Assembly (NCBI GenBank): GCA_902791935.1
Contig: CADAXQ010000006.1
Location: forward strand, 8,129-72,128
Length of the DNA: 64,000 bases
Source: an uncultured Erysipelotrichaceae bacterium
GTDB taxonomy: Bacteria; Bacillota_I; Bacilli_A; RFN20; CAG-826
Direction of reading: 5' to 3'
The notes under the pieces are model-generated. The model was given only the letters and a program-made list of their open reading frames with translations. It had not been told where the DNA came from and made no database searches. This document shows positions 2,669-37,110 of this stretch, in pieces (positions within the stretch are counted from its first letter, which is position 1; each line of letters begins with the position of its first letter). Position numbers and translations under genes: made by a program.

Positions 2669-2701
2669 GAAAAGAAAAGGCATCGGAAGCACTCCGATGC
2701 C
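2669..2701 (-). terminator. Rho-independent terminator after rnfA
   Basis: On the minus strand, a GGCATCGGA-gtgct-TCCGATGCC hairpin is followed by TTTTCTTTTC, directly downstream of the rnfA stop. Confidence 0.65.
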
Positions 2702-2716
2702 AGTAAGGATGAAGGA

Positions 2717-3298
2717 TTAGAACGTCATCATCCAGCAACCGAGGCAAAGCCCGGCGATGGAAAGAAGAAGTAACGGCATGGTCGCAAAACGGAACGGGCC
2801 ATTTGTGTTAGAGACGGAAAGTCGATCTAAGACGGCGCCCGTGGCGTAACTAGCGGCCAAGTAACCTAATGGCAAGCAAATGATGCTGCCGATTAACATG
2901 ACGGCATCCGTGCCAGCTTCGTAAGAAAGCAAGACGACCACCAAAGCAAGCAAAGAAGAATTTAAGCCGATTTCGACATAGGAGTCGGATAAATCGTTCC
3001 GCATGGCTTCAGGGAAGCAATATTTCGTAAGAAGAGCGAAACCGCCTAAGCAGATCGACATGATGAGCACCGCGAAAAGCGGAGTCAGATACGTCCACAT
3101 GGCGTTATTTGCCGCCAAAGCACGGAACCCCCAGCCTGCAAAGCCCAAGATCAAGGCTTCCACAAAATAGAGGCACAAAAGCACCCAACGATAATGGGTC
3201 TTTTTGGCGCCAAGGGCAACGTTTTGCCGTAAACCATAGCCCGATAACACCAAGCTATGCGCGAAGAATGCCGATAAGAGAACACCTAAGAATTGCAT
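2717..3298 (-). CDS. rnfA: Rnf electron-transport complex subunit A (RnfA/NqrE family)
   Basis: Polytopic membrane protein MQFLGVLLSAFFAHSLVLSGYGL... The ORF-track extension to 3436 overlaps rnfE, so I trimmed it to the ATG at 3296-3298, 2 nt after the rnfE stop. Confidence 0.85.
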   Translation of the reverse strand: MQFLGVLLSAFFAHSLVLSGYGLRQNVALGAKKTHYRWVLLCLYFVEALILGFAGWGFRALAANNAMWTYLTPLFAVLIMSICLGGFALLTKYCFPEAMRNDLSDSYVEIGLNSSLLALVVVLLSYEAGTDAVMLIGSIICLPLGYLAASYATGAVLDRLSVSNTNGPFRFATMPLLLLSIAGLCLGCWMMTF

Positions 3299-3300
3299 GG

Positions 3301-3978
3301 TTATTTTGCCTCCTTGGCTACGGAAGCCTTTTGCTTTTTCGCTTCGAGAATCGCAAGATGAATGCCTGAGAAGATAGCCACTAAGAAGAAGCCACCAAAC
3401 GGTTGTGAGAGAATGCCTAACGTCCAGCCACTCCATGCGGTCCAGGTAGAAGAAGTGCCATCAATCGCGGTGAACGTAATCGCGCCAGTGGCCAAAAGTT
3501 CGCGGACAAAGGCGATGAGCACCAAGGCAAGCAAGAAGCCAATGCCGCTTCCTAACGCATCCCCAAGATTGTCAGATAAAGGATGTTCCAAACTCTCTTG
3601 CCCTTTGATGAGTACCAAAGAGGTGGTGGAGATAAACGGAACCAACGTCAATAAGGCAATGGCTTTTTCGTTTTCCGTGTCGATGAGTTTTGGCGCATAC
3701 GCCACCAAAAGAAGCATGGTCACGGTAGCAAAGCAAGCCGAGAGAATTGCCGATAAGATCGTCGCCCCGACTTTGTTTAAGAACGAATGGCAAAGTGAAA
3801 CGATAAGGACGGTCAAGAAGAGGATGACCAACGTTAAGACACCAACCATCAAGGCGGTTTGGAATCTCGTGGTCGCTAAAACGGCTAACGTAAGTCCTAA
3901 GAATAACGTCAAAACGGGGTTATTGAAGTAAAGGCCGTCAAGGAATGAGGATAAAAATCCTTTTTTCGTTTGTTCCAT
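3301..3978 (-). CDS. rnfE: Rnf complex subunit E (RnfE/NqrD family)
   Basis: 225-aa polytopic membrane protein in the conserved position between rnfG and rnfA. Sequence is typical of RnfE (NNPVLTLFLGLT..., LGDALGSGIGF). Confidence 0.85.
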   Translation of the reverse strand: MEQTKKGFLSSFLDGLYFNNPVLTLFLGLTLAVLATTRFQTALMVGVLTLVILFLTVLIVSLCHSFLNKVGATILSAILSACFATVTMLLLVAYAPKLIDTENEKAIALLTLVPFISTTSLVLIKGQESLEHPLSDNLGDALGSGIGFLLALVLIAFVRELLATGAITFTAIDGTSSTWTAWSGWTLGILSQPFGGFFLVAIFSGIHLAILEAKKQKASVAKEAK

Positions 3979-3981
3979 GGC

Positions 3982-4518
3982 TTATTCCCTCCCTTTCGCG
4001 TCGGTTAACGCAGCGTCGACCGCCGTTTGCATGGCAACAGGCGTTTCTTGCACGGTTGCCCCGGTGACAACGACATCGGACGAGCCATCATAGCCGATGA
4101 AATCTTTGGTCGCCCGTGCCCAATTCGTGCCTTGATCGTCTTCGTTTGATTTCACGAAGGCATAGTAAGCGACGGCATCATTTTTAATGCCGATATCGAA
4201 CGTGACTTTGCCACCGAACCCCGTTGCGCTACGGCAACGATAGTAGAAGGCTTTGACGGACGTGTCAGGCAAATAGACGCGGTAACCATCAAGTAAGTAT
4301 GATTTCGAAGTAACGGTCGTCTCGTCAATGATTTTGGTGACACCGGTAGGAGCGTCATCTGCAAATAACGTGGCGACGACCTCAGGAACGGCATCGCCAG
4401 AAGGAACGCGCGCGGCAATGGCTGGGGCTGTCACTCCATAATAGATGCCGACGCTTGCCCCTACGGCTGCCACCGCAGCAAAGCAACAAACCAAGGCGGT
4501 TTTTCCAATTAAATTCAT
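3982..4518 (-). CDS. rnfG: Rnf complex subunit G (FMN-binding)
   Basis: N-terminal TM anchor plus an FMN_bind-like domain ending in SSDVVVTGATV (the Dxx(S/T)GAT flavinylation motif). Start trimmed to the ATG at 4516-4518, downstream of the rnfD stop. Confidence 0.8.
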   Translation of the reverse strand: MNLIGKTALVCCFAAVAAVGASVGIYYGVTAPAIAARVPSGDAVPEVVATLFADDAPTGVTKIIDETTVTSKSYLLDGYRVYLPDTSVKAFYYRCRSATGFGGKVTFDIGIKNDAVAYYAFVKSNEDDQGTNWARATKDFIGYDGSSDVVVTGATVQETPVAMQTAVDAALTDAKGRE

Positions 4519-4531
4519 GGTTCTTTCCTCC

Positions 4532-5653
4532 TTATGCAGCAAATCTTCCATCGGCTTGAATCGTGTGTTGTAACCCAAAGGTCAGCCCGACGGCCAACAC
4601 CGCGAGGAAGAGGACGCAAACGACAATGGTCGGAACGAGATTATTCCGCGTCCGTCCTTTGACGACCTTATCAATCAATGGCGTTAAGAAGTTCATGATC
4701 AAGATGGAATAGGCAACGCCTTCAGGTGAAGCGGTGAAGAGACGAAGCAAGATGGTAATGAATGCACTGCCTAAGGCAAAGATGATTCGTCCCGAACGGG
4801 CAGTGGGGCTCGTGACGGGATCCGTTAAGCAAAGGATGCCGCCAAAGAAGATGCCGCCAATGGCCGTGTATTTGAATGCATCGGCAAAGGCATATGTGCC
4901 ATCCTTCATCGCAAAGAACATAAGCAAGAACGCCAAATACAACGAACCGATGTAGAAGACAGGAACACGCCAATCAATGATTTCGCGGACGCAAAGATAG
5001 ACGCAAATCACCAAAAGGAGCAATAAATACGTCTCGCCTAAGGCGCCATAGTAAGCGCCTAAGAACACTTTGCCAAAATCAAAGTGACTGCCAATTAAGC
5101 CTTGGAAACCAGAGGTTCCGTTCGAAGCGGTTAAAGAAGCGCCAGTTTCGACAAACGCGCTATCGCTCTTATAGGCATTCATGCCCGAAGAGAAGACGAG
5201 TTGCGCAAAAATGCGGCCGATAATCGCGGGATTGAAGATGTTATGACCAAATCCGCCAAACAATAATTTGAAGAAGAATGTGCCGACAAACGCGCTGATC
5301 CCGACTTGCCACCAAGGCAAAGAAATCGTGCAAAGCAACGCCACGAGTAATCCCGTCACAAAGGAGTAGGAATGCAAGATGCGGTAACCATATTCTTTCC
5401 AACGATTTCCGACGGTATCTTTCTTCCATAAAACCGGTAAGTGATATAAGACATCGGCAAAGTCAGCGAATAAGATGCCAGCAAGGCCATTCACAAAGGC
5501 ATTGAGGCCATTATATTCGGCCGTGCCTTTGATGCTATAAAAGACAATGGCATAAATCCAAAGGGCAACCAAGCAGCCAAAGAATTCGAACATCTTCTGC
5601 GTCAAACTGACTTTGGTGCGTAATTGCGGAGCGGTTTCGATGACGGTTTCCAT
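4532..5653 (-). CDS. rnfD: Rnf complex subunit D (RnfD/NqrB family)
   Basis: 373-aa polytopic membrane protein containing a VETGASLTA (TGAS) motif. Its start overlaps the rnfC stop by 1 nt. Confidence 0.85.
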   Translation of the reverse strand: METVIETAPQLRTKVSLTQKMFEFFGCLVALWIYAIVFYSIKGTAEYNGLNAFVNGLAGILFADFADVLYHLPVLWKKDTVGNRWKEYGYRILHSYSFVTGLLVALLCTISLPWWQVGISAFVGTFFFKLLFGGFGHNIFNPAIIGRIFAQLVFSSGMNAYKSDSAFVETGASLTASNGTSGFQGLIGSHFDFGKVFLGAYYGALGETYLLLLLVICVYLCVREIIDWRVPVFYIGSLYLAFLLMFFAMKDGTYAFADAFKYTAIGGIFFGGILCLTDPVTSPTARSGRIIFALGSAFITILLRLFTASPEGVAYSILIMNFLTPLIDKVVKGRTRNNLVPTIVVCVLFLAVLAVGLTFGLQHTIQADGRFAA

Positions 5654-6957
5654 TATTTGCCCTCCTTCATAGCCATTAAGACTTTGGCTTTCGCTTCTTG
5701 GACGTTACGCGAAACATCGATTCTCGCGGGGCAGACAAAAGAACAAAGTCCGCAACCGCAGCATCGTTCCGCATGTAACGCCTTCATGCGTTCTAAGTCA
5801 TTCCGTTTCAACGCCATTTGAATTTGCACCGGTTGCAAATCCATCGGGCATTGCTTGCAACAATCGCCACAATGCCAGCAAGGTTCGGCCCGGAACGCAT
5901 TGGCCTTCATGACCAAAACGCCGTTTGACTGCATTAATGTGGCAAAATGCGAAGAAGCCAAGCAGTTGCCGTTTAACGGGCCACCATTGATGTATTTGCC
6001 TTTTTCGATGGTTTCACCACCAGCTAATGCGATTAAATCATCGGCTGCGACGCCATAAGGCGTTAAGACGTTCTTCGGTTCTTTGACTTCACCGGCCACC
6101 GTGATACAACGAAGATCCGGTGTCTTTCCTTCCGTGAAGTAACGGCCAAGCAAGATAAACGTATAGATGTTATCGACAATGGCTTGGGCTTCAATCGGAA
6201 TATTCATGTATTCCTTTTTCGTGACTAATGTGACGAGATTCCGTTCATAACCCATCGGGTATTTGTCGGCTGTCGCATAGAGTTCGACCGGAATATCGGG
6301 GTATTTTTCGTGATTGACGCGATAGGCTTCGAGCAAGGCTGGTTTGTCTTTCTTCGTGCAGAATGCCACCCGTTTGGCACCCGTTACCTTTAATAAATAA
6401 GGAAGGGCTTTCCAAACGTATTCGGCCATTTCGGCACCATAGACATAGTCTGTCGTTAAGAAAGGCTCGCATTCAATGGCGTTGATGATTAAGACATCGA
6501 CTGGTTTTCCCGAGTTGTACTTGCGGTAGGTCGGGAAGCCAGCGCCGCCCATGCCGATGACGCCCGAAGACTTCATTGCAGCAAGAATTTGCTCATTCGT
6601 GGCTTCTTCCCAAGAAGGAAGTGGTTTTGCCAACGTCCATTCGTCTTTCTTGTCGTTATGGATGCAGAAGACTTTTTGCGTTCTTCCTCCGGCGGTCAAA
6701 ATCGGTTCAATCGCCTCAATCGTGCCACTCACTGAGGAATAGATAGGGAAGTCGTCAGGGGCACGGGTGCCTAACAAACTTCCTTTTTCCACGGCATCAC
6801 CCACTTTTAAGGTGTTATTCAGTGGGTTGCCGCGGCCATCAAAGGCCGGGATGTAAACATATTCCGGGGCATACGTAACATAAGGCGCATCGGCCGTTTG
6901 CTCTTTATGTCCAGGAATATGGGTCGCTTCGTAGGAGCGGAACAAATGAAATGCCAT
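5653..6957 (-). CDS. rnfC: Rnf complex subunit C (NADH-binding, 2x[4Fe-4S])
   Basis: 434 aa with GMGGAGFPT nucleotide/FMN motifs and two ferredoxin-type cysteine clusters (CWHCGDCCKQCP, CCGCGLCSFVCP). Confidence 0.9.
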   Translation of the reverse strand: MAFHLFRSYEATHIPGHKEQTADAPYVTYAPEYVYIPAFDGRGNPLNNTLKVGDAVEKGSLLGTRAPDDFPIYSSVSGTIEAIEPILTAGGRTQKVFCIHNDKKDEWTLAKPLPSWEEATNEQILAAMKSSGVIGMGGAGFPTYRKYNSGKPVDVLIINAIECEPFLTTDYVYGAEMAEYVWKALPYLLKVTGAKRVAFCTKKDKPALLEAYRVNHEKYPDIPVELYATADKYPMGYERNLVTLVTKKEYMNIPIEAQAIVDNIYTFILLGRYFTEGKTPDLRCITVAGEVKEPKNVLTPYGVAADDLIALAGGETIEKGKYINGGPLNGNCLASSHFATLMQSNGVLVMKANAFRAEPCWHCGDCCKQCPMDLQPVQIQMALKRNDLERMKALHAERCCGCGLCSFVCPARIDVSRNVQEAKAKVLMAMKEGK

Positions 6958-6994
6958 AGGTTCTCCTTTTTTCTAGTATAAGATGAGGACAAAA

Positions 6995-7031
6995 AGTAAG
7001 AAAGAGCCCGACTCCAAAAAAGTCAGGCTCT
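6995..7031 (-). terminator. Rho-independent terminator between the lipoprotein gene and rnfC
   Basis: Minus strand: AGAGCCTGACT-loop-AGTCGGGCTCT (one G-U pair) followed by a T-rich run. Confidence 0.6.
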
Positions 7032-7049
7032 TTGCATCATCGATAACGA

Positions 7050-8630
7050 TTACGCCAAATAGGCATAAGCGCGATGCGCAAATTCGGCAAACGTTTCGAA
7101 TTCAGTCATCGTTGCGCCGGTCTTCACGCCGTCAAAGACAACGTAAATATGGCCGTCGGCATCTTTTTCTTCCGGCTTTTCCGAAGCAATCGCATTCGTG
7201 AAGTCTTTGCCAACAAAGGCTTTTTCGACCGCACGGATGTTCCATTGCCACCAGTTATTGGCATCGGCTGGGGCAACATTTTCTGGTGCCTCATGGCCTT
7301 TGGCCCAATAAGTGCAATCATATTCGGCTTTCGTCGCGGTGACGTTACCAAGGGTAGGAGCATAAAGCGTCGTGCCTGTGGCATCGTTAGAAATCGTGAC
7401 ATAGTGCGTGAACGCAGCGTTGTAATAGTCAGCGGCGCGATAAGGATCATTGCCATAGTAAGCCAAGGCATCGGTGCCTAAAGAGCTGCTATAGATCACG
7501 TTTTGCTTATTGGTCTTGGTGTCTTCATTCACTGTACCTGTCCAAATGGTGCCATTGACGGACATGTATTGGGCATAGTAAGCAGTCGTTGTGGTCGTGG
7601 TGCTATCGGAGTTCGTCTTCGTAGTGGTCTTCGAGAGAGTCGGGAATTCGGAATCGATCTTGGCAGAACCCCAGTTCTCTAAGAAACGAGTCGTTTCGTT
7701 GATGTGGGCATCTAAGACTTTGTTGTCACTGCCGACAACGAGTTCGACTTTGGAAATGCAGTTATAGTGACCGTTCGATTTCCGGCCATCTAATTTATCG
7801 GCGCCATAATAGGCAACGACTTTCGAAGTGCCTTTGAACGCAGTTTGGGCCAGTTCGATATAGGTTTCGAACGAGCCGAGGGTAGCACCGGTGGAAACGC
7901 TGTCTAACGTCCAGACTTTGTCATCGCCTTGTTCCATGGCGAAGTTTTTCGAAAGGTCTTTGCCTTTCAAGGCTTTTTCAATGTTTTGAATGTTCCATTT
8001 CCATTGCGAGCCATCGACGGATTTATCTTTGGTGACGCCCCAAGTCCAATAGGTGGAATCTTTCGAGGCTTTGGAGTAGATCATCGCGATTTCGCCTTCG
8101 ATCCGAGCGCCTGCGCTATCGGCACCATAGACGAAATTGTTGACGAGCGCATAGTAGAAATCAGAAAGTTCGGCTTGGGTACGAGAGCTGTCTTTGTAAT
8201 AGGCTTCTAAATCGGTGTCGCCATTCTTGTAGGCTAACTTGCTGCCATCGACAGAGGCAGTGAAGAGCTTGCCATTCACGTTAAGATATTTGGCATAGTT
8301 CTTGTCCCCGTTCTTTTCATCAGTAACGGTAACAACATTGTCGCCAGCTGCGGCACTGGTAACGCCAATCGTCGTGGCACCAAACTTCACTTCGTCAAAA
8401 CGGACGGAGTCAGCAATGCCTTTCTTCACTTGGACTTCAGCGCGAATGATGTTGTCCGAAACGATGCCATAAGCAATCCGAATGCCGCTATTTTCTTTGG
8501 TAGTTTGGCTCGATTCGGTCGAGGTGACAGAGTTAACCTTGCTGCTAGATTGGCCCCGGGTATCATTGCATCCCGCTAGGGCCATCAAGGCGGCTGCCGC
8601 TGTCAACAAAACTAATTTTTGTTCTTTCAT
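7050..8630 (-). CDS. Lipoprotein built of two homologous modules, each ending in an FMN-attachment-type motif (putative extracytoplasmic flavoprotein)
   Basis: Signal peptide with lipobox LMALAG|C. The two ~220-aa modules align with each other, for example YAKYLNVNGKLFTASV with YAQYMSVNGTIWTGTV and QWKWNIQNIEKALKGKD with WWQWNIRAVEKAFVGKD. They end in LDSVSTGATL (codons 7881-7892) and FDGVKTGATM (7110-7121). Start trimmed from a TTG at 8666 to the ATG at 8628-8630, which has GGAGG upstream. Confidence 0.7.
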   Translation of the reverse strand: MKEQKLVLLTAAAALMALAGCNDTRGQSSSKVNSVTSTESSQTTKENSGIRIAYGIVSDNIIRAEVQVKKGIADSVRFDEVKFGATTIGVTSAAAGDNVVTVTDEKNGDKNYAKYLNVNGKLFTASVDGSKLAYKNGDTDLEAYYKDSSRTQAELSDFYYALVNNFVYGADSAGARIEGEIAMIYSKASKDSTYWTWGVTKDKSVDGSQWKWNIQNIEKALKGKDLSKNFAMEQGDDKVWTLDSVSTGATLGSFETYIELAQTAFKGTSKVVAYYGADKLDGRKSNGHYNCISKVELVVGSDNKVLDAHINETTRFLENWGSAKIDSEFPTLSKTTTKTNSDSTTTTTTAYYAQYMSVNGTIWTGTVNEDTKTNKQNVIYSSSLGTDALAYYGNDPYRAADYYNAAFTHYVTISNDATGTTLYAPTLGNVTATKAEYDCTYWAKGHEAPENVAPADANNWWQWNIRAVEKAFVGKDFTNAIASEKPEEKDADGHIYVVFDGVKTGATMTEFETFAEFAHRAYAYLA

Positions 8631-8810: not shown

Positions 8811-9440
8811 TTATTTATTAGAAGAAAAAGGTAAGGTTTTATTAGTATTTCCGAACCGATAGGAAACACTAACTGTCTCCGTATCAGAATGAGACTCATA
8901 ACAAACAGGAAGATAATCTTGATAAGCGACGGAAATCGTTGCTTGTTCTCTTTGATCTTGGAAAGAGAGGTTACCTTTTGCTTGGGAAGAGAGGTTGTGG
9001 ATCTGGGATTCTTCCGTAGAGGAAAGGTTTAGGAGCGCGCTTAACGCATCGCTTGGCAAAGTTAAGTAAGCGTAGTAATCCTTTAATAAGGTATTTAAGG
9101 TTTGCTGGGCTGTTTCTTGATTGGTGTCACTAGAAACGTTGCCATTTTGATCTACCGTATAGCAAAGATAGTCGCCATTATCTTGTTGTGTGACATAAGT
9201 GGCGCTAGCATTCATCCTAGAGATACGCGCGAAATACGAATCGGCTAACGAGAAACGGAATTCTTCCTCATTCGTCTGAATGGTGGCTTCATTTCGCTTG
9301 GCAATTAAATGTGAATCATGGCTTTCTTGGTGAAGGATATCTTGAGCACGCGCTTTCGCGTCTTGGAAAGAAATTTCGTTGGACGAGGTACAAGAAGCCA
9401 GGGCTAGCATAGCCAAGAAAGAGAGAACACCACGTTTCAT
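8811..9440 (-). CDS. Hypothetical lipoprotein
   Basis: 209 aa with signal peptide and lipobox LALAS|C. No family recognised. Confidence 0.6.
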   Translation of the reverse strand: MKRGVLSFLAMLALASCTSSNEISFQDAKARAQDILHQESHDSHLIAKRNEATIQTNEEEFRFSLADSYFARISRMNASATYVTQQDNGDYLCYTVDQNGNVSSDTNQETAQQTLNTLLKDYYAYLTLPSDALSALLNLSSTEESQIHNLSSQAKGNLSFQDQREQATISVAYQDYLPVCYESHSDTETVSVSYRFGNTNKTLPFSSNK

Positions 9441-30181: not shown

Positions 30182-30634
30182 ATGAAACGTTTTTACCTTG
30201 GCTTAAATCGCGATCAAAAAGGAATGTTCTGGCTTGTGACGATTTCCGTCGTGGTTTTTCTTGCCTTGATTCCGCTTTATTTCTTTGGCTTAGATAAGGG
30301 CTATCAATACCCGAATGGTTGGTGGCTCGGTTCGTTCGTCGAACTATTCGCTTATTTCACTTTAATTTACTTCACGAACCGCTTAACCGATCAAAAAAGT
30401 GGTAACCATACCGGGTTGATGATTTTGAATGCCCTCGTGCGTCCGCTTTGTTATTTGGTGGTTCTCGTCATCAGCGCCATCTGCACGTTCCGCCCCGCCT
30501 GGTTTGGCGGATTTGACATGTTTGGCTTTTGGACAGCGTTTGCCGCTTTATTACCGATGCCAATCGTTGTGCTTTGCACGCATTTCATGAAGAAAGAACC
30601 CGTGAAGGATTCCGATGAGGCCAGCTGTCTATGA
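30182..30634 (+). CDS. Small membrane protein, AtpI-like by position
   Basis: 150 aa with 4 predicted TM helices. It lies immediately upstream of atpB and overlaps it by 4 nt. Confidence 0.45.
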   Translation: MKRFYLGLNRDQKGMFWLVTISVVVFLALIPLYFFGLDKGYQYPNGWWLGSFVELFAYFTLIYFTNRLTDQKSGNHTGLMILNALVRPLCYLVVLVISAICTFRPAWFGGFDMFGFWTAFAALLPMPIVVLCTHFMKKEPVKDSDEASCL

Positions 30635-31518
30635 TGATCTATGCCGACTACCACGATCGTTTAAATGACATGTTCAAGTTTGGCTGGGAATGGCTGGATG
30701 CGCCATTATTCAGCTCACTTTTGGTCATGCTTGTCCTATTGATTCTCGGCGTCGTCATCGGCATCAAAGCCCACAAAGCCGTGAAAAAAGGTCAATACAA
30801 AGAAGCACCAAGGGGTTTGCTTTTCTGGGCAGATGCTTATTATGACTATGTGACGAACTTCACCGTTGGGAACATGGGGGAATCCTCCATGGCCTGGAGC
30901 GGTTATTTCTGGGTGTTATTTGCCTATCTTTTCTTATCTTTTAATGCCTCGCTCTTTGGCATTCCTTCCGTGATTGACTGGCTTCCCGCCCCGTTATGCT
31001 TGGCTGTGATCATGTTCACGTTAATTCAAGTCACTGCCATCAAATATCAACATTGGCATTATTTCCATCGTTATATCGAGCCGATTGCGGCATTCTTGCC
31101 CGTGAACCTCATTACGATGTGGTCCCCGATTATCTCGACCACGATGCGTATGTTTGGGAACTGCTTGGCTGGCACCATCATCATTACGCTGGTGCAATGG
31201 GCGTTATCGAACGCCTCGGCCGCCATTTTCTCTGCCATGAATGTTTCGTTAACGATTCCCGGCATTGCCGACAACTGGCAATCCTGGTGGAATGCGTTCC
31301 CTTATTGGACCGGTACGATTCTTTCCCCGATCCCAATGGGGGTCTTAAATCTTTACTTCAGCTTGTTCTCCGGGTTTGTTCAGACCCTGGTATTTTGCTC
31401 TTTGACATCCCTTTGGATTGCCCAAGAGAAACCAACGGACGAGGAACAGACGTATGTCGACCTTGCCCGTATCCCGTCTGACTTGCTCGTCGAACAAGCG
31501 AAGGAATCATCCATATAA
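30631..31518 (+). CDS. atpB: F0F1 ATP synthase subunit a
   Basis: Polytopic protein with the conserved RMFGNCLAGT (essential Arg) region. Confidence 0.9.
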   Translation: MMIYADYHDRLNDMFKFGWEWLDAPLFSSLLVMLVLLILGVVIGIKAHKAVKKGQYKEAPRGLLFWADAYYDYVTNFTVGNMGESSMAWSGYFWVLFAYLFLSFNASLFGIPSVIDWLPAPLCLAVIMFTLIQVTAIKYQHWHYFHRYIEPIAAFLPVNLITMWSPIISTTMRMFGNCLAGTIIITLVQWALSNASAAIFSAMNVSLTIPGIADNWQSWWNAFPYWTGTILSPIPMGVLNLYFSLFSGFVQTLVFCSLTSLWIAQEKPTDEEQTYVDLARIPSDLLVEQAKESSI

Positions 31519-31540
31519 TCCATAGATAGGAGGTAGAAGT

Positions 31541-31801
31541 ATGGAATTTTTGATGTTATTGGAAGAGACCGCTGCGAGCGCCGTTGGCCTCAAAGCAATC
31601 GGGGCGGCCATCGCCGTTGCCTTTGGCTGCCTTTCCGCCATCGGGGAATCGCTCATTTGCTGCCACGCGATTGACGGCATGGTCCGGAATCCTGAAATGG
31701 CTGGCAAGTTACGGAGCAACATGATCGTTGCTGTCGCGCTTGACGAATCCACCGCCATTTACGCCTTGATTACCGCCATTTTGATCATCTTCGTCTTATA
31801 A
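31541..31801 (+). CDS. atpE: F0F1 ATP synthase subunit c, with a Na+-binding-type signature
   Basis: 86-aa hairpin protein. Helix 1 reads ...AIGES..., the loop RNPE, helix 2 ...ALDESTAIY... Confidence 0.9.
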   Translation: MEFLMLLEETAASAVGLKAIGAAIAVAFGCLSAIGESLICCHAIDGMVRNPEMAGKLRSNMIVAVALDESTAIYALITAILIIFVL

Positions 31802-31820
31802 CCATCACTAGGAGAACTGG

Positions 31821-32387
31821 ATGTTTATGCTATATCTCAACATTTTTGCTGCTTCATCCAGCCCGTTCTCCCCAGAAGACTTCTTGAATAAGATTTTCGG
31901 CAATTTCTGGTCGTTGCTCATCAATCTTCTGGCGTTGATCGTTCTTTTCCTTGTGCTTTATTTCGTCGCGTATAAGCCGGTACGGAAATACGTGGAAAAA
32001 CGTCGCGATTATATCAATCACAACATTCATGATGCCGAAACCGCGAAACGGTTCTATGAAGCGAAAGCGAGCGAAGGAGACAAGATCATCGCCGATGCGC
32101 GTCAAGAGGCCCAAGCCATTGTGACGAAGGCCCAAGATGACGCCGCCAAACAAGCCACGCAAATTGTCGAAGCCGCGAATGCGGAAGCCAAAGAACGGCA
32201 ACAACGCGCGGACGAAGCCATCAAGCAACAAGAAGTCAAAGCCCAAAAAGCCATGCAAGAAGCGATTGTGCAAGTGGCCATGGACGCTTCGAAAGAATTG
32301 CTTGGCCGCGAAGTCAACACCAAAGACAACGAAGAGCTCGTGGCGAATTTCGCCAGTCAAGTGCAAGAGGGGAAGAGAGCGGAATGA
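31821..32387 (+). CDS. atpF: F0F1 ATP synthase subunit b
   Basis: N-terminal TM helix plus a long charged Ala/Glu/Lys/Gln-rich helix, in the conserved position. Confidence 0.85.
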   Translation: MFMLYLNIFAASSSPFSPEDFLNKIFGNFWSLLINLLALIVLFLVLYFVAYKPVRKYVEKRRDYINHNIHDAETAKRFYEAKASEGDKIIADARQEAQAIVTKAQDDAAKQATQIVEAANAEAKERQQRADEAIKQQEVKAQKAMQEAIVQVAMDASKELLGREVNTKDNEELVANFASQVQEGKRAE

Positions 32388-32929
32388 AGAACGAACGCTA
32401 TGCCAATTATGCGGACGCGCTTTATCAGTTCGCCCGTGATGAAGGGAAAATATCAGCTTATCGGGAAGCGATGAAACTCGTTGTTTCCACGTTTGCGGAT
32501 AACCCATCTTTTGGCACGTTCTTAGCTTCTTATTCTGTGCCGCAAGAACGGCAATTTGCCTTGTTAGAAGAAGTGTTTGCTTCTCTTGACACCCCTGAGC
32601 TCGTCCCATTTTTAAAACTTGTGACGGCGCGTCATTTGATTCCCCATCTATCCGATATTGCCGATTGCTTTATTCAAGAATGCAATGAAGCACTAGGCAT
32701 TCGGGAAGGCATCGTCTATTCGACGGCGTTACTCTCGAAAGACGACCTTGCGAAAATTCAATCCGCCCTGGAAGAACGGTTGGGCGTGAAAGTCTATCTT
32801 CATAACCAAGCCGACACGAATCTCATCGGCGGCGTGAAGGTAGCGATTGACGGAAAAGTGTTTGACGGGTCCATCCAAGCCCGTTGGGAAGCACTCCGAA
32901 ATCAACTTCTTAAAGGAGGAACGCTATGA
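32384..32929 (+). CDS. atpH: F0F1 ATP synthase subunit delta
   Basis: 181-aa OSCP-like protein (C-terminal [18 protein letters not shown]), in the conserved position. Confidence 0.85.
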
Positions 32930-34434
32930 AACTGAATCCAAACGAGATTTCCTCGCTCATCAAAGAGCAAATCAAAGGATATGAAGGCCAAATTGAAAGT
33001 AGTGACGTGGGAACGGTCATTGCGGTGGGCGATGGCATCGCCACGCTTTATGGCCTACGCAATGCCATGTTAGGGGAACTTTTACTCTTCCCTCACGATG
33101 TTTACGGCATGGTCATGAATCTCAATGAAGACGATGTCGGCGCTGTGTTGCTCGATAGCGATCTTTCAATCAAAGAAGGCGACACCGTCAAACGGACGGG
33201 CAAAGTCGTTGAAGTCCCCGTCGGCGATGGTTTATTAGGCCGCGTGGTTTCTCCTTTAGGCTTACCGATTGATGAACTTGGACCGATTTCCTATACGAAA
33301 ACAAGACCGATTGAACGGATTGCGCCTGGCGTCATGACACGGGAATCCGTCAACACGCCGCTTGAAACCGGCATTAAAGCTATTGACTCGATGATTCCGA
33401 TTGGCCGCGGTCAGCGGGAACTTATCATCGGCGATCGTCAAACGGGCAAAACCTCCATTGCTATCGATACGATCGTGAATCAAAAAGGCAAGAACGTAAA
33501 ATGCGTTTATGTCGCGATTGGGCAAAAGAACTCCTCCGTCGCAAGCTTAGTGGACCGTTTGAAACAGAAAGGTTGCTTTGATTATGTGACGGTGGTGAAC
33601 GCTTCGGCGTCCGAACCGGCACCACAGCAATATATCGCCCCATTCGCTGGTATGGCCATGGCCGAAGAATGGATGGAACAAGGGCAAGATGTCTTGATTG
33701 TCTTTGATGATTTATCGAAACACGCGGTCGCATACCGTACGTTATCGTTATTGCTCCGTCGTGCCCCGGGCCGTGAAGCTTATCCCGGCGATATCTTCTA
33801 TCTCCATTCCCGGTTGCTCGAACGGGCTTGTAAACTCTCGAAACAATATGGCGGTGGTTCCATTACCGCCCTTCCCATCGTCGAAACCCAAGCAGGCGAT
33901 ATTTCTGCCTATATTCCGACGAACATCATTTCTATTACCGATGGTCAGATTTTCTTGATCACCGATTACTTTGCTGCCGGTCAACGCCCAGCCGTTGATA
34001 GCGGCTTCTCCGTGTCGCGTGTCGGTTCTTCAGCACAAACGAAAGCCATGAAGCAAGTGGCAAAATCGTTAAAAATTGAATTAGCGAACTATCGGGAAAA
34101 TCTTTCGTTTGCCCAATTTGGTAGCGACCTTGACCCGGAAACCAAACGCATTTTGACGCATGGTGCCGTCGTGATGGAAGCGTTAAAGCAAAAGAACTGG
34201 AGCCCGATGGATAGCACGGACGAAGTGCTGGAGCTCTTTGCCGTCAAGAACCGTTATCTCGATGATTTGCCATTAAATGAGGTAAATCCTTTCTTAACGG
34301 ACCTCTTAAAACATCTCCATGCCTCCCATGCTGATTTGGTCGATAGCATCAAGACAAAACAAAAGATCGAACCAGAAGTCGAAGCGGCATTAAATGACGC
34401 CATTAAGGCATTTAAAGCGAATCGGAACGCATAA
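32926..34434 (+). CDS. atpA: F0F1 ATP synthase subunit alpha
   Basis: Walker A GDRQTGKT. Highly conserved alpha-subunit sequence. Confidence 0.95.
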
Positions 34435-34436
34435 TT

Positions 34437-36729
<2,293 letters not shown>

Positions 36730-36730
<1 letters not shown>

Positions 36731-37110
36731 TGGCGGAATCTTTGCTCGTAACGATTGTGACCCCGCACGGCATCGCCTTTGAAGGCGAAGTCGCTGCTTT
36801 GCTTGTGCCCTCCAGTCGCGGCCCGTTAGGATTGCTTCCTGGCTATACCCCTTTAATCGCAGAACTTGCCCCCAAAGGCATTTTGACTTTGACGATGCAA
36901 GAAGGACAAAAACGTTATTTTGTCCTGTTCCATGGCGCGTTAGAAGTCAAACCAGAGCGAACGTATGTCTTAACAGACAAAGCGGTTCCCGCGAGTAACG
37001 AAGAAGAAGCCAATCGTATGCTTGCTTCGTTACCCCTTTCTTCCGCTTCGGACGATCATCAATTAGAGACCGCCACAGCAAAATTACAAGGAAGTCTAAG
37101 TAAAGTATGA
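36730..37110 (+). CDS. atpC: F0F1 ATP synthase subunit epsilon
   Basis: 126 aa. The N-terminal beta-sandwich sequence (LLVTIVTPHGIAFEGEV) is typical of epsilon. Confidence 0.9.

What the first reader, a model, noticed from the sequence alone, without database searches (positions are those of the whole stretch)
2717..8630. rnfCDGEA cluster without rnfB, next to a two-module lipoprotein carrying two ApbE-type flavinylation motifs
Seen in the sequence: the five Rnf genes run contiguously from 6957 to 2717 on the minus strand. A strong terminator (2669-2701) follows directly after rnfA. No ferredoxin-like rnfB ORF exists anywhere in the 64 kb. Immediately upstream, separated only by its own terminator, lies a 526-aa lipoprotein (lipobox LMALAG|C). 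It is built of two homologous ~220-aa modules, each ending in D-x-V-x-T-G-A-T: LDSVSTGATL at 7881-7892 and FDGVKTGATM at 7110-7121. RnfG here shows the same motif (DVVVTGATV). Established knowledge: Dxx(S/T)GA(T/S) is the site where ApbE/Ftp flavin transferases attach FMN covalently. This is known for RnfG/NqrC and for extracytoplasmic electron-transfer lipoproteins such as Listeria PplA, which also has two FMN-binding domains. Inference: this surface flavoprotein may be a redox partner or outlet for an RnfB-less Rnf-like complex, that is, an extracytosolic electron-transfer module rather than the classical ferredoxin:NAD+ Rnf. The modules are much longer than a plain FMN_bind domain, so the protein may belong to a poorly described family.
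Basis: partly seen in the sequence, partly recalled or inferred. Interest (0 to 1): 0.7.

Follow-up and report, generated by a model that had tools for sequence, protein, structure and literature searches.

The report
RnfB-less Rnf with two-flavin lipoprotein
An uncultured gut or rumen bacterium carries a cut-down copy of the Rnf respiratory complex that has lost its ferredoxin-side subunit and its membrane iron-sulfur site, always next to an undescribed surface lipoprotein with two predicted flavin-attachment sites, which suggests a one-way wire carrying electrons from NADH to the cell surface.

Summary
The genes rnfC, D, G, E and A run from 6957 to 2717 on the minus strand, and a terminator hairpin follows each unit. 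No RnfB-like ORF and no other 4Fe-4S motif exists in the 64 kb.

The 526-aa lipoprotein consists of two homologous modules (hhalign E 1e-39). Each ends in a near-invariant TGAT.

Three new results:
- The lipoprotein directly precedes rnfC in every cluster of this type whose upstream DNA is held. In most relatives a lipoprotein ApbE flavin transferase follows rnfA, and an EetB-type FAD exporter gene often lies upstream.
- All four cysteines that hold the membrane [2Fe-2S] cluster of RnfA/RnfE are replaced in every cluster of this type. A paralogous rnf cluster, adjacent in some of the same genomes, keeps all four and carries a mini-RnfB. The RnfB-to-RnfAE branch is therefore truly lost.
- The lipoprotein matches no Pfam or NCBIfam family and no PDB sequence. 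Its best fold match is the FMN_bind prototype 3O6U, and that match is not significant.

Most likely function: NADH passes electrons through RnfC, RnfD and RnfG to the lipoprotein flavins and then to an outside acceptor. No step has been tested biochemically. I rate it a new variant of a known kind, interest about 0.6.

The parts
7050..8630 (-). 526-aa lipoprotein with two modules and two predicted flavinylation sites
   Evidence: ORF. It has 19 close homologues and 169 cluster representatives. The AF2 model has pLDDT 84.6 and pTM 0.85. It has no Pfam or NCBIfam hit and no PDB sequence hit.
8568..8630 (-). signal peptide and lipobox (LMALAG|C, Cys21)
   Evidence: Read directly from the sequence. 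C21 is nearly invariant in alignment A1 and the equivalent Cys is invariant in the single-module relatives (A5).
7827..8495 (-). module 1 (aa 46-268)
   Evidence: Homologous to module 2: blastp E 1e-18 and hhalign E 1.2e-39. The module-only AF2 model has pLDDT 93.6.
7053..7826 (-). module 2 (aa 269-526)
7881..7892 (-). TGAT motif 1; predicted FMN acceptor Thr250 (codon 7883-7881)
   Evidence: Coordinates. G248, A249 and T250 are invariant in 19 homologues.
7110..7121 (-). TGAT motif 2; predicted FMN acceptor Thr507 (codon 7112-7110)
   Evidence: Coordinates. G505 and A506 are invariant, T504 is nearly invariant, and position 507 is Thr or Ser in all 19.
7001..7033 (-). terminator-like hairpin between the lipoprotein gene and rnfC (15-bp stem, T-rich tail)
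   Evidence: A comparable hairpin sits at the same place in L009.
5653..6957 (-). rnfC (434 aa): NADH/FMN module plus two 4Fe-4S motifs (5880-5845 and 5763-5728)
   Evidence: TIGR01945 at 265 bits, above its cut-off. PF01512 at 92 bits, plus PF13375. Motifs located.
4532..5653 (-). rnfD (373 aa) with a conserved TGAS site at 5146-5135
   Evidence: PF03116 at 199 bits. Matches 7zc6_D at E 2e-33. T170-G-A-S173 is invariant in five clusters.
3982..4518 (-). rnfG-like membrane-anchored protein with TGAT at 4065-4054
   Evidence: FMN_bind at 19.5 bits, below the cut-off. It lies between rnfD and rnfE. [T/A]GAT is invariant in five clusters.
3301..3978 (-). rnfE (225 aa) lacking both [2Fe-2S] cysteine ligands: T30 (3891-3889) and S120 (3621-3619)
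   Evidence: PF02508 at 81 bits. In the alignment to A. woodii RnfE, C25 aligns with T30 and C108 with S120. Both replacements are invariant in 13 type-1 sequences. Ligand identities are from PMC11889175.
2717..3298 (-). rnfA-like (193 aa), highly diverged, lacking both [2Fe-2S] cysteine ligands
   Evidence: No library hit. Its profile matches 9eri_A at E 0.01 over residues 2-179. The ligand columns hold Q/D/E/A and S/T/N in all type-1 sequences (Q25 and S114 in the window), and Cys in the type-2 paralogues.
2669..2701 (-). terminator-like hairpin after rnfA (10-bp stem, then TTTTCTTTTC); no room for an rnfB
   Evidence: The next gene, a YitT-family gene at 1532-2560, is on the other strand.

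Best explanation
The region encodes a derived, paralogous Rnf-type complex ('type 1': RnfC, D, G, E and A) that has lost its ferredoxin input branch. That branch comprises RnfB and the membrane [2Fe-2S] cluster held by RnfA/E. The remaining half of the electron path runs from NADH to RnfC (FMN and two 4Fe-4S clusters), then to RnfD (covalent FMN at TGAS), then to RnfG (covalent FMN at TGAT) on the outer face of the membrane.

The lipoprotein encoded directly upstream is anchored on the same face. It is predicted to carry two FMN groups attached by ApbE, at Thr250 and Thr507. It takes electrons from RnfG and passes them to an extracytosolic acceptor that is not yet identified.

The system would then be a one-way NADH:extracellular-acceptor oxidoreductase, an outlet for reducing equivalents in a fermenting, wall-less or Gram-positive-type gut bacterium. 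It would not be a reversible ferredoxin:NAD+ ion pump.

**Shown here:** gene content, motif conservation, conserved gene order, loss of the Cys ligands, and ApbE/EetB linkage in relatives.

**Inferred:** covalent flavinylation, contact between RnfG and the lipoprotein, the direction of electron flow, and loss of ion pumping.
For: 1. **Conserved order.** The lipoprotein directly precedes rnfCDGEA in all 12 type-1 clusters whose upstream DNA is held. Lipoprotein identity goes down to 38%.
2. **Flavinylation machinery in the same clusters.** A lipoprotein ApbE (PF02424, lipobox) follows rnfA in L008, L009, L011, L016, L018, L020-L023 and L027. A pair of NusG_II and PF07456 genes lies upstream in L011, L016, L020 and L023. 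PF07456 is EetB, the FAD-exporter subunit that supplies extracytosolic ApbE (PMC9973259).
3. **Lipoprotein and ApbE without rnf.** Where no rnf lies beside it, the lipoprotein gene is followed directly by apbE (L002-L005, L007, L010, L012). This is the pattern expected of an ApbE substrate.
4. **Motif conservation.** Both TGAT motifs are invariant or nearly so in 19 homologues and in about 60 single-module relatives. RnfD TGAS and RnfG [T/A]GAT are invariant.
5. **Correlated loss.** There is no rnfB in any type-1 cluster, and all four [2Fe-2S] ligand positions are non-Cys in 13 RnfE and 12 RnfA-like sequences. The neighbouring type-2 paralogue has a 109-aa PF04060 mini-RnfB and keeps all four Cys.
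6. **RnfC looks functional.** It scores above the TIGR01945 cut-off and both 4Fe-4S motifs are intact.
7. **The paralogous cluster has the same layout.** Type 2 is also headed by a lipoprotein, from a different family, with four repeats each ending in AGATQT. A multi-flavin lipoprotein gene ahead of rnfC is therefore a recurring design.
8. **Structure.** The AF2 model packs the two modules confidently (pTM 0.85). The best PDB fold match of one module is the FMN_bind prototype 3O6U (probability 0.82, rmsd 2.0 A over 38 columns).
Against: - The modules have no significant sequence or fold match to FMN_bind:
  - Pfam gives none at E up to 10.
  - After splicing out the insertion, only 2 of 22 modules hit, at E 0.068 or worse.
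  - Foldseek gives E 0.37.
  - hhalign against the RnfG-like profile aligns only the motif itself.
- In these proteins the Asp lies 7 residues before the acceptor Thr, not 6 as I recall for the canonical Dxx(S/T)GA(T/S) motif.
- The window itself has no apbE and no eetA/B.
- Hairpins separate the lipoprotein gene from rnfC, so co-transcription is not certain.
- Family members also occur without an adjacent rnf (7 loci), or next to tgt-queA-queH and nrdDG with neither rnf nor apbE nearby (L001, L013, L014, L017).
- No terminal acceptor or reductase gene is evident.
- RnfA and RnfE are kept under selection although their cluster is gone, and this model does not explain why.
Confidence: 0.6

Rival explanations
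1. This is a flavinylation island only. The lipoprotein and the Rnf-like complex lie together because both need ApbE and exported FAD for maturation, not because they exchange electrons. The lipoprotein would have its own job, for example iron or flavin reduction fed by another donor, or flavin binding.
For: - The family occurs directly beside apbE and eetAB with no rnf in between (L002-L005, L007, L010, L012).
- It also occurs in a tgt-queA-queH / nrdDG setting with no rnf.
- Hairpins separate it from rnfC.
Against: - In the window and in L006 the lipoprotein and rnfCDGEA stay adjacent although apbE and eetAB are not there. Shared maturation genes therefore cannot be what holds them together.
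- Every type-1 rnfC whose upstream DNA is held has the lipoprotein in front of it.
- The paralogous type-2 cluster has a different multi-GAT lipoprotein in the same position.
- RnfG, having lost its RnfA/E partner cluster, needs some other redox partner on the outer face.
Confidence: 0.2
2. The same wiring runs inward. The lipoprotein collects electrons from an extracellular low-potential donor and feeds them through RnfG, RnfD and RnfC to NAD+.
For: In canonical Rnf working from ferredoxin to NAD+, and in Nqr, electrons move from the RnfG/NqrC flavin to the RnfD/NqrB flavin (PMC10979944; PMC11889175). The lipoprotein would then stand in for the lost RnfB-RnfAE input.
Against: Reducing NAD+ needs a donor near or below -320 mV outside the cell. 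No hydrogenase, formate dehydrogenase or similar extracytosolic donor enzyme is encoded in any of the clusters. Fermenters usually need an NADH sink, not a source.
Confidence: 0.08
3. This is a classical ferredoxin:NAD+ Rnf whose RnfB is encoded elsewhere, for example the mini-RnfB of the type-2 cluster acting in trans. The lipoprotein would be unrelated.
For: Only 64 kb of the genome is visible. Related genomes do encode a PF04060 mini-RnfB in a second rnf cluster.
Against: All four cysteines that bind the [2Fe-2S] cluster receiving electrons from RnfB are replaced in every type-1 RnfE and RnfA. They are kept in the type-2 paralogues of the same genomes. In A. woodii, mutating these cysteines abolishes ferredoxin-dependent NAD+ reduction (PMC11889175).
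Confidence: 0.04
4. The lipoprotein is not flavinylated. TGAT would be conserved for another reason, such as ligand binding or fold, and the protein would be a substrate-binding or structural surface lipoprotein.
For: - There is no significant FMN_bind homology.
- The Asp spacing in the motif is not canonical.
- Some family members sit beside queuosine salvage and biosynthesis genes.
Against: - apbE is the immediate neighbour of the gene in the rnf-less loci, and lies at the end of the shared cluster in 10 type-1 loci.
- The motif sits at the same place as in FMN_bind proteins, just before a C-terminal amphipathic helix.
- ApbE substrates are known to be structurally diverse (PMC10979944).
Confidence: 0.08

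Closest known systems
Rnf complex (RnfCDGEAB, Na+/H+-translocating ferredoxin:NAD+ oxidoreductase; structures 7ZC6, 8AHX, 9ERI)
   Same: It has homologous RnfC, D, G, E and A in the Firmicutes gene order. The NADH/FMN/4Fe-4S module of RnfC is kept, and so are the covalent-FMN motifs of RnfD and RnfG.
   Different: There is no RnfB. All four Cys ligands of the RnfA/E [2Fe-2S] cluster are replaced. RnfA has diverged beyond library detection. A two-module lipoprotein gene is fixed upstream.
Methanosarcina acetivorans mmcA-rnfCDGEABX operon (multi-haem cytochrome MmcA as an extracytoplasmic Rnf partner and electron-transfer conduit)
   Same: A gene for an extracytoplasmic electron carrier with several cofactors is the first gene, directly upstream of rnfC (bioRxiv 10.1101/2022.07.20.500911). 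An outward branch from Rnf has been proposed there.
   Different: The carrier there is a c-type multi-haem cytochrome, not a flavinylated lipoprotein. That operon keeps RnfB and the ferredoxin branch.
Multi-flavinylated extracytosolic proteins, and RNF clusters with multi-flavinylated RnfG (Meheust et al. 2021, eLife, PMC8238504)
   Same: It is an extracytosolic protein with more than one predicted ApbE site, linked to a transmembrane electron-transfer system. The idea of a second, outward electron path from Rnf is shared.
   Different: That class was defined by Pfam FMN_bind domains, and RNF was defined there by the presence of RnfB. This lipoprotein has no FMN_bind hit and this cluster has no RnfB, so both fall outside those definitions.
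FMN-bind2 domain proteins (Huang et al. 2024, PMC10979944; example NTW96865.1 from an Erysipelotrichaceae bacterium)
   Same: It has an even number of domains that pack as a pseudo-symmetric pair with two sites. Predicted insertions lie between beta1 and beta2 (module 2) and between beta3 and alpha1 (both modules). It has no InterPro entry and comes from a similar host group.
   Different: The modules are 220-260 aa, not about 160. I could not obtain the NTW96865.1 sequence for comparison. The four-repeat lipoprotein of the type-2 cluster fits the FMN-bind2 description better, and hhalign does not relate it to these modules (probability 3%).
NQR/RNF-like two-subunit systems (Meheust 2021; Huang 2024)
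   Same: Both are proposed as one-way NAD(P)H-to-outside electron transfer through RnfD-type and RnfG-type flavoproteins.
   Different: Those systems have an RnfD fused to an NqrF-type NAD-binding domain (PF00175) plus RnfG only. Here a separate RnfC is the NADH module, and RnfE and RnfA are retained.
Listeria monocytogenes EET locus (Ndh2, EetA/B, FmnA/B, DmkA/B, and PplA with two FMN_bind domains)
   Same: Both have a surface lipoprotein with two flavinylation sites, an extracytosolic ApbE (FmnB) and an EetB-type FAD exporter in the gene neighbourhood.
   Different: The membrane donor in Listeria is Ndh2 with demethylmenaquinone, not an Rnf-type complex. The window lipoprotein does not hit the PplA model NF041941.
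Postulated RnfB-less intermediate in the origin of Na+-NQR (Reyes-Prieto et al. 2014, PMC4014512)
   Same: It is a duplicated rnf operon that lost rnfB while keeping the rnfCDGEA order. In L020, L023 and L027 the two paralogous operons still lie in tandem.
   Different: Nqr kept the D/E [2Fe-2S] cluster, lost the cofactors of NqrA (the RnfC homologue) and recruited NqrF. Here the opposite half survived: RnfC is intact and the A/E cluster is lost.

Membership tests
Rnf ferredoxin:NAD+ oxidoreductase complex | RnfC with an NADH/FMN site and two 4Fe-4S clusters | tested here: met
   TIGR01945 at 265 bits (cut-off 246) and PF01512 at 92 bits. The motifs CWHCGDCCKQCP and CCGCGLCSFVCP are present.
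Rnf ferredoxin:NAD+ oxidoreductase complex | RnfD and RnfG with covalent-FMN acceptor motifs | tested here: met
   RnfD TGAS is invariant. RnfG [T/A]GAT is invariant. RnfD matches 7zc6_D at E 2e-33. The RnfG-like protein reaches only 19.5 bits on FMN_bind.
Rnf ferredoxin:NAD+ oxidoreductase complex | RnfA/RnfE pair binding a membrane [2Fe-2S] cluster through four cysteines (A. woodii C25/C113 in RnfA, C25/C108 in RnfE) | tested here: not met
   RnfE has T30 and S120 at these positions. The RnfA-like protein has no Cys at either column. This holds in all type-1 sequences, whereas the type-2 paralogues keep all four.
Rnf ferredoxin:NAD+ oxidoreductase complex | RnfB ferredoxin-binding Fe-S subunit | tested here: not met
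   It is absent from all 13 type-1 clusters and from the 64-kb window, by motif scans and by tblastn with a mini-RnfB. The rest of the genome is not visible.
Multi-flavinylated extracytosolic proteins (Meheust 2021) | Secreted or lipid-anchored protein with more than one Pfam FMN_bind (PF04205) domain | tested here: not met
   The signal peptide and lipobox are present. No PF04205 hit appears for the protein or for any of 22 modules at E up to 10.
Multi-flavinylated extracytosolic proteins (Meheust 2021) | More than one [S/T]GA[S/T] site, and co-localisation with apbE | tested here: met
   Two conserved TGAT motifs. apbE is adjacent or within the cluster in relatives, though not in the window itself.
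FMN_bind fold (prototype 3O6U) | Three-stranded beta meander, then a helix, then the S/TGAT loop and a C-terminal helix; significant structural similarity | tested here: inconclusive
   The predicted order of secondary-structure elements fits if a roughly 125-aa insertion follows beta3. 3O6U_C is the top Foldseek hit for the module, but at E 0.37 over 38 columns. It was rank 40 for the full-length model.
FMN-bind2 subtype (Huang 2024) | Domain of about 160 aa with beta1/beta2 and beta3/alpha1 insertions, in 2 or 4 copies forming pseudo-symmetric pairs; similarity to NTW96865.1 | not testable with these tools
   The copy number and insertion sites are compatible. The module size is larger. The reference sequence could not be retrieved, and it was not among the cluster members looked up.
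NQR/RNF-like two-subunit system | RnfD fused to an NqrF-type NAD-binding domain (PF00175) | tested here: not met
   The 373-aa RnfD hits PF03116 only. A separate RnfC is present.
Listeria-type EET locus | PplA-family lipoprotein with Ndh2 and DmkA/B | tested here: not met
   The window protein does not hit NF041941. No ndh2 or dmk genes appear in any cluster. Only EetB-type and ApbE genes are shared.

The most novel reading that the evidence does not exclude
The type-1 cluster is a naturally occurring 'half-Rnf'. It is a duplicated rnf operon that discarded RnfB and the membrane [2Fe-2S] cluster, which is the redox-coupled Na+ gate of canonical Rnf. It now works with a new family of doubly flavinylated lipoproteins as an all-flavin outer chain, from RnfD to RnfG to two lipoprotein FMNs. 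This chain exports electrons from NADH to the cell surface without the canonical ion-pumping step. It would be a living counterpart of the RnfB-less intermediate postulated for the origin of Na+-NQR, resolved in the opposite direction. It would also be a fourth structural class of ApbE substrate that current domain-based surveys do not see.
Probability: 0.45. Interest if true: 0.75.

Novelty: new variant of a known kind. Interest (0 to 1): 0.62.

Why it matters
- **A natural experiment on Rnf and Nqr.** One half of the semicircular electron path has been deleted by evolution while the scaffold subunits RnfA and RnfE are retained. This lets one ask what RnfA/E do apart from holding the [2Fe-2S] Na+ gate.
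- **A test of the Nqr origin scenario.** It is an extant example of the 'duplicate rnf, lose rnfB' step proposed for the origin of Na+-NQR.
- **A blind spot in flavinylation surveys.** It adds an unannotated lipoprotein family: 169 cluster representatives, including many single-module forms. Surveys of extracytosolic flavinylation based on Pfam FMN_bind or on the RnfB marker would miss it. Flavin-based extracellular electron transfer in gut and rumen Bacilli may therefore be under-counted.
- **A possible route for redox balance.** It points to a way for poorly known uncultured Erysipelotrichaceae-like or Mollicutes-like gut bacteria to dispose of NADH.

Tried and rejected
- **Sequence searches with the lipoprotein found no known family.**
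  - Pfam and NCBIfam on the whole lipoprotein and on 22 separate modules gave nothing relevant.
  - PDB sequence searches with the protein, the module profile and a spliced mini-domain profile gave only chance-level hits.
- **Spliced mini-domains.** I cut out the roughly 125-aa insertion to let HMMER bridge it. FMN_bind was then the only family hit by more than one module, but only 2 of 22, at E 0.068 or worse. I count this as faint, not as evidence.
- **Profile comparisons.** hhalign of the modules against the RnfG-like profile aligned 11 columns around TGAT. Against the four-repeat type-2 lipoprotein it gave probability 3%. No homology is shown.
- **'PG1828 family lipoprotein'.** This NCBIfam model hit 15 of 60 single-module relatives. 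The match covers only the signal peptide, residues 1-27, so I rejected it.
- **Foldseek on the full-length model.** There was no hit below E 0.27.
- **NTW96865.1.** I tried to find this published FMN-bind2 example among the cluster members and did not.
- I worked around it with a homology search.
- **Literature.** A search for an RnfB-less Rnf found nothing relevant in the held library.

Full report
**1. What is in the sequence**

The minus strand from 8630 to 2717 carries six genes:
- a 526-aa lipoprotein (7050-8630)
- rnfC (5653-6957)
- rnfD (4532-5653)
- an rnfG-like gene (3982-4518)
- rnfE (3301-3978)
- an rnfA-like gene (2717-3298)

RnfC scores above the curated TIGR01945 cut-off (265 against 246 bits). 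It has the Complex1_51K NADH/FMN domain and two intact C-x2-C-x2-C-x3-CP motifs. RnfD (PF03116, 199 bits) and RnfE (PF02508, 81 bits) are clear.

The RnfG-like protein reaches only 19.5 bits on FMN_bind, below the cut-off of 22. The RnfA-like protein matches nothing in Pfam, NCBIfam or the PDB on its own. A profile built from five orthologues matches A. woodii RnfA (9eri_A) over residues 2-179 at E 0.01.

Terminator-like hairpins lie between the lipoprotein gene and rnfC (7033-7001, 15-bp stem) and after rnfA (2701-2679). The next gene is a YitT-family gene on the other strand, so there is no room for an rnfB.

I scanned the whole 64 kb in six frames.
- The motif C-x2-C-x2-C-x3-C occurs only twice, both in RnfC.
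- No PF04060-like motif is present.
- D-x(2,3)-[ST]GA[ST] occurs only three times: once in RnfG and twice in the lipoprotein.

**2. The lipoprotein**

It has a lipobox (LMALAG|C21). Its two modules, aa 46-268 and 269-526, are clearly homologous. blastp gives E 1e-18, and hhalign gives probability 100% with E 1.2e-39.

Only 19 close homologues exist among 5.8 billion clustered proteins, and none is named. Both TGAT motifs are invariant or nearly so in them.

A profile search of 1.84 billion cluster representatives found 169 relatives at E below 0.001. Many are single-module lipoproteins of about 250 aa with the same C-terminal TGAT.

No module hits any Pfam family, and no PDB sequence matches the modules.

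AlphaFold2 gives confident models:
- full length: pLDDT 84.6, pTM 0.85
- module 1 alone: pLDDT 93.6

The predicted order of elements is a three-stranded beta meander, a roughly 125-residue beta-rich insertion with two helices, a helix, two short strands, the TGAT loop and a C-terminal helix. This is the FMN_bind order with a large insertion after beta3. Module 2 also has an insertion between beta1 and beta2.

Foldseek finds no significant PDB match. For the single module the top hit of 350,542 chains is 3O6U (E 0.37, probability 0.82, rmsd 2.0 A over 38 columns). Huang et al. use 3O6U as the FMN_bind1 prototype. I treat this as suggestive only.

Splicing out the insertion made FMN_bind the only Pfam family hit by more than one module, but only 2 of 22, at E 0.068 or worse.

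**3. Gene neighbourhoods elsewhere**

I call the window's kind of cluster 'type 1'. In every type-1 cluster for which I hold upstream DNA, the two-module lipoprotein gene directly precedes rnfC. These are the window (and its duplicate L019), L006, L008, L009, L011, L016, L018, L020, L021, L022, L023 and L027. Identity to the window protein falls as low as 38-45% for the lipoprotein and 29-38% for RnfA.

In 10 of 13 type-1 clusters a 500-530-aa ApbE (PF02424) follows rnfA. It has its own lipobox. The window, L006 and L026 lack it.

In L011, L016, L020 and L023 a divergent gene pair lies just upstream. One gene has a NusG_II domain and the other belongs to PF07456. PF07456 is EetB, the substrate-binding subunit of the FAD exporter that feeds extracytosolic ApbE. 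EetB usually sits beside eetA and often beside Rnf genes (PMC9973259). That the NusG_II gene is eetA is my inference.

In seven further loci (L002-L005, L007, L010, L012) the same lipoprotein family sits between that gene pair and apbE, with no rnf between them.

A third setting has neither rnf nor apbE. The family member lies after tgt-queA-queH and before nrdDG (L001, L013, L014, L017).

**4. The loss of the RnfB branch is real**

In A. woodii Rnf, a membrane [2Fe-2S] cluster is held by C25 and C113 of RnfA and by C25 and C108 of RnfE. It receives electrons from RnfB and gates Na+ pumping. Mutating these cysteines abolishes ferredoxin-dependent NAD+ reduction (PMC11889175).

The window's RnfE aligns T30 to C25 and S120 to C108. 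These replacements are invariant in 13 type-1 RnfE sequences. The two RnfA columns hold Q/D/E/A and S/T/N in all 12 type-1 RnfA-like sequences.

Some of the same genomes provide an internal control. In L020, L023 and L027 a second rnf cluster ('type 2') follows in tandem after two apbE genes. Type 2 alone is seen complete in L024 and L025. It consists of:
- a 767-aa lipoprotein with four repeats, each ending in AGATQT
- rnfC2 and rnfD2
- a 482-aa RnfG2
- rnfE2 and rnfA2
- a 109-aa protein with only the PF04060 Fe-S domain, that is, a mini-RnfB

The type-2 RnfE2 and RnfA2 keep all four cysteines (LGTCP, VVNC, YGICA, TTNC). So RnfB and the A/E cluster were lost together in type 1 and kept together in type 2. 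This argues strongly against an RnfB acting in trans.

**5. Mechanism proposed**

Four elements survive:
- an intact NADH module (RnfC)
- RnfD with a conserved TGAS site
- RnfG with a conserved [T/A]GAT site on the outer face
- a lipid-anchored protein with two more predicted flavin sites

The simplest reading is a linear path: NADH, RnfC, RnfD, RnfG, the lipoprotein flavins, then an outside acceptor. The complex would be an NADH outlet rather than a reversible ferredoxin:NAD+ pump. Because the Na+-gating cluster is gone, I expect no canonical ion pumping.

The following are inferred, not shown: covalent flavinylation, contact between RnfG and the lipoprotein, the direction of flow, the acceptor, and the reason RnfA and RnfE are kept.

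The main rival is that the genes lie together only because they share maturation by ApbE and EetB. The window and L006 argue against this, since the lipoprotein-rnf pair persists there without apbE or eetAB. So does the presence of a different multi-GAT lipoprotein at the head of the type-2 cluster.

**6. Relation to what is known**

- **Multi-flavinylated proteins.** Meheust et al. 2021 described multi-flavinylated extracytosolic proteins and proposed that some RNF clusters have a second, outward path. They defined such proteins by Pfam FMN_bind and RNF by the RnfB marker, so neither part of this system would have been counted.
- **NQR/RNF-like system.** Their system of that name is a different, two-subunit design.
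- **FMN-bind2.** Huang et al. 2024 describe domains of about 160 aa with insertions at the same places, in 2 or 4 copies, with no InterPro entry. Their example is from an Erysipelotrichaceae bacterium. This is the closest described domain type, but I could not obtain that sequence, and the modules here are larger.
- **mmcA-rnfCDGEABX.** The M. acetivorans operon is the closest analogue in layout.
- **Origin of Nqr.** Reyes-Prieto et al. 2014 postulated duplication of rnf followed by loss of rnfB as the origin of Nqr. Type 1 is an extant case of that step with the opposite outcome: RnfC is kept and the A/E cluster is lost.
- **Literature check.** I found no paper in the held library that describes an RnfB-less Rnf.

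**7. Verdict**

The system is a new variant of a known kind. The family is small and confined to uncultured gut and rumen Bacilli; L006 is titled an uncultured Erysipelotrichaceae MAG, and other loci are labelled Mollicutes, Bacillales or Candidatus Enterosoma. Nothing has been tested biochemically. I therefore set interest at about 0.6.

Noticed in passing
L023 4681-20504; also L020, L027 and L011: A tandem supercluster. In order: a NusG_II/PF07456 gene pair, a TMEM164-like gene, the two-module lipoprotein, type-1 rnfCDGEA, two apbE genes, a 767-aa lipoprotein and a second rnf cluster (rnfC2, D2, G2, E2, ...). The two paralogous Rnf systems lie side by side.
   Followed up: partly
L023 13857-16160; L024 5225-7528; L025 5209-7521: A 767-770-aa lipoprotein with no Pfam hit. 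In L023 and L024 it has four repeats of about 165-190 aa, each ending in xAGATQT followed by a helix. It is probably a four-site flavinylated protein of the FMN-bind2 kind. The exact GATQT motif was not found in the L025 copy.
   Followed up: partly
L024 13109-13438; L025 13182-13511: A 109-aa 'mini-RnfB' at the end of the type-2 cluster. It has one transmembrane helix and a single PF04060 four-Cys domain, with no polyferredoxin domains. It is much smaller than the described RnfB subunits, which carry three to eight 4Fe-4S clusters.
   Followed up: partly
L023 18630-20078; L024 10001-11449: The RnfG of the type-2 cluster is 482 aa, about 2.5 times the usual size. It carries at least two GAT/GAS-type motifs (KCGATFGA and VAGASSGA), so it may be a multi-flavinylated RnfG.
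   Followed up: no
L001 10001-11452; L013 8001-8780; L014 8001-8786; L017 6715-10359: Single-module and two-module relatives of the lipoprotein sit in a conserved slot after tgt-queA-queH (queuosine genes) and before nrdD-nrdG, with no apbE or rnf nearby. L017 has two family members in tandem. I cannot tell whether this is shared ancestry of gene order in one lineage or a functional link.
   Followed up: partly
L008, L009, L011 and L020-L023 RnfE and RnfA-like proteins (for example L009 14622-15332 and 15334-15903): In this sub-clade a cysteine lies three residues before the lost RnfE ligand position (LCTSS) and two before the lost RnfA position (RSCRT or RACST). The window and L006 have none. 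This could be a remnant or a re-invented site. It is unexplained.
   Followed up: no
L009 15961-17484 and its orthologues: The cluster's ApbE proteins are 500-530 aa and are themselves lipoproteins. They extend about 110 aa before and about 120 aa after the PF02424 core (residues 115-388). The extensions match no family.
   Followed up: no
window 31541-31801: The ATP synthase c subunit, within the atp operon at about 30182-37110, reads ...AIGES...ALDESTAIY.... From memory, an E/Q...ES-T...Y pattern is the signature of Na+-binding c rings. If so, the organism may run a Na+ cycle. I did not test this.
   Followed up: no
window 8811-9440 (minus strand): A second lipoprotein of 209 aa lies directly upstream of the two-module lipoprotein. 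It matches no family. It is present in L019 (90% identity) but not in L006, and it has no TGAT motif.
   Followed up: partly
L009 11597-11625 and 15931-15956; window 7001-7033: Strong hairpins separate the lipoprotein gene from rnfC and rnfA from apbE, within an otherwise tightly packed cluster. They may set different expression levels for the lipoprotein, the complex and the transferase.
   Followed up: no
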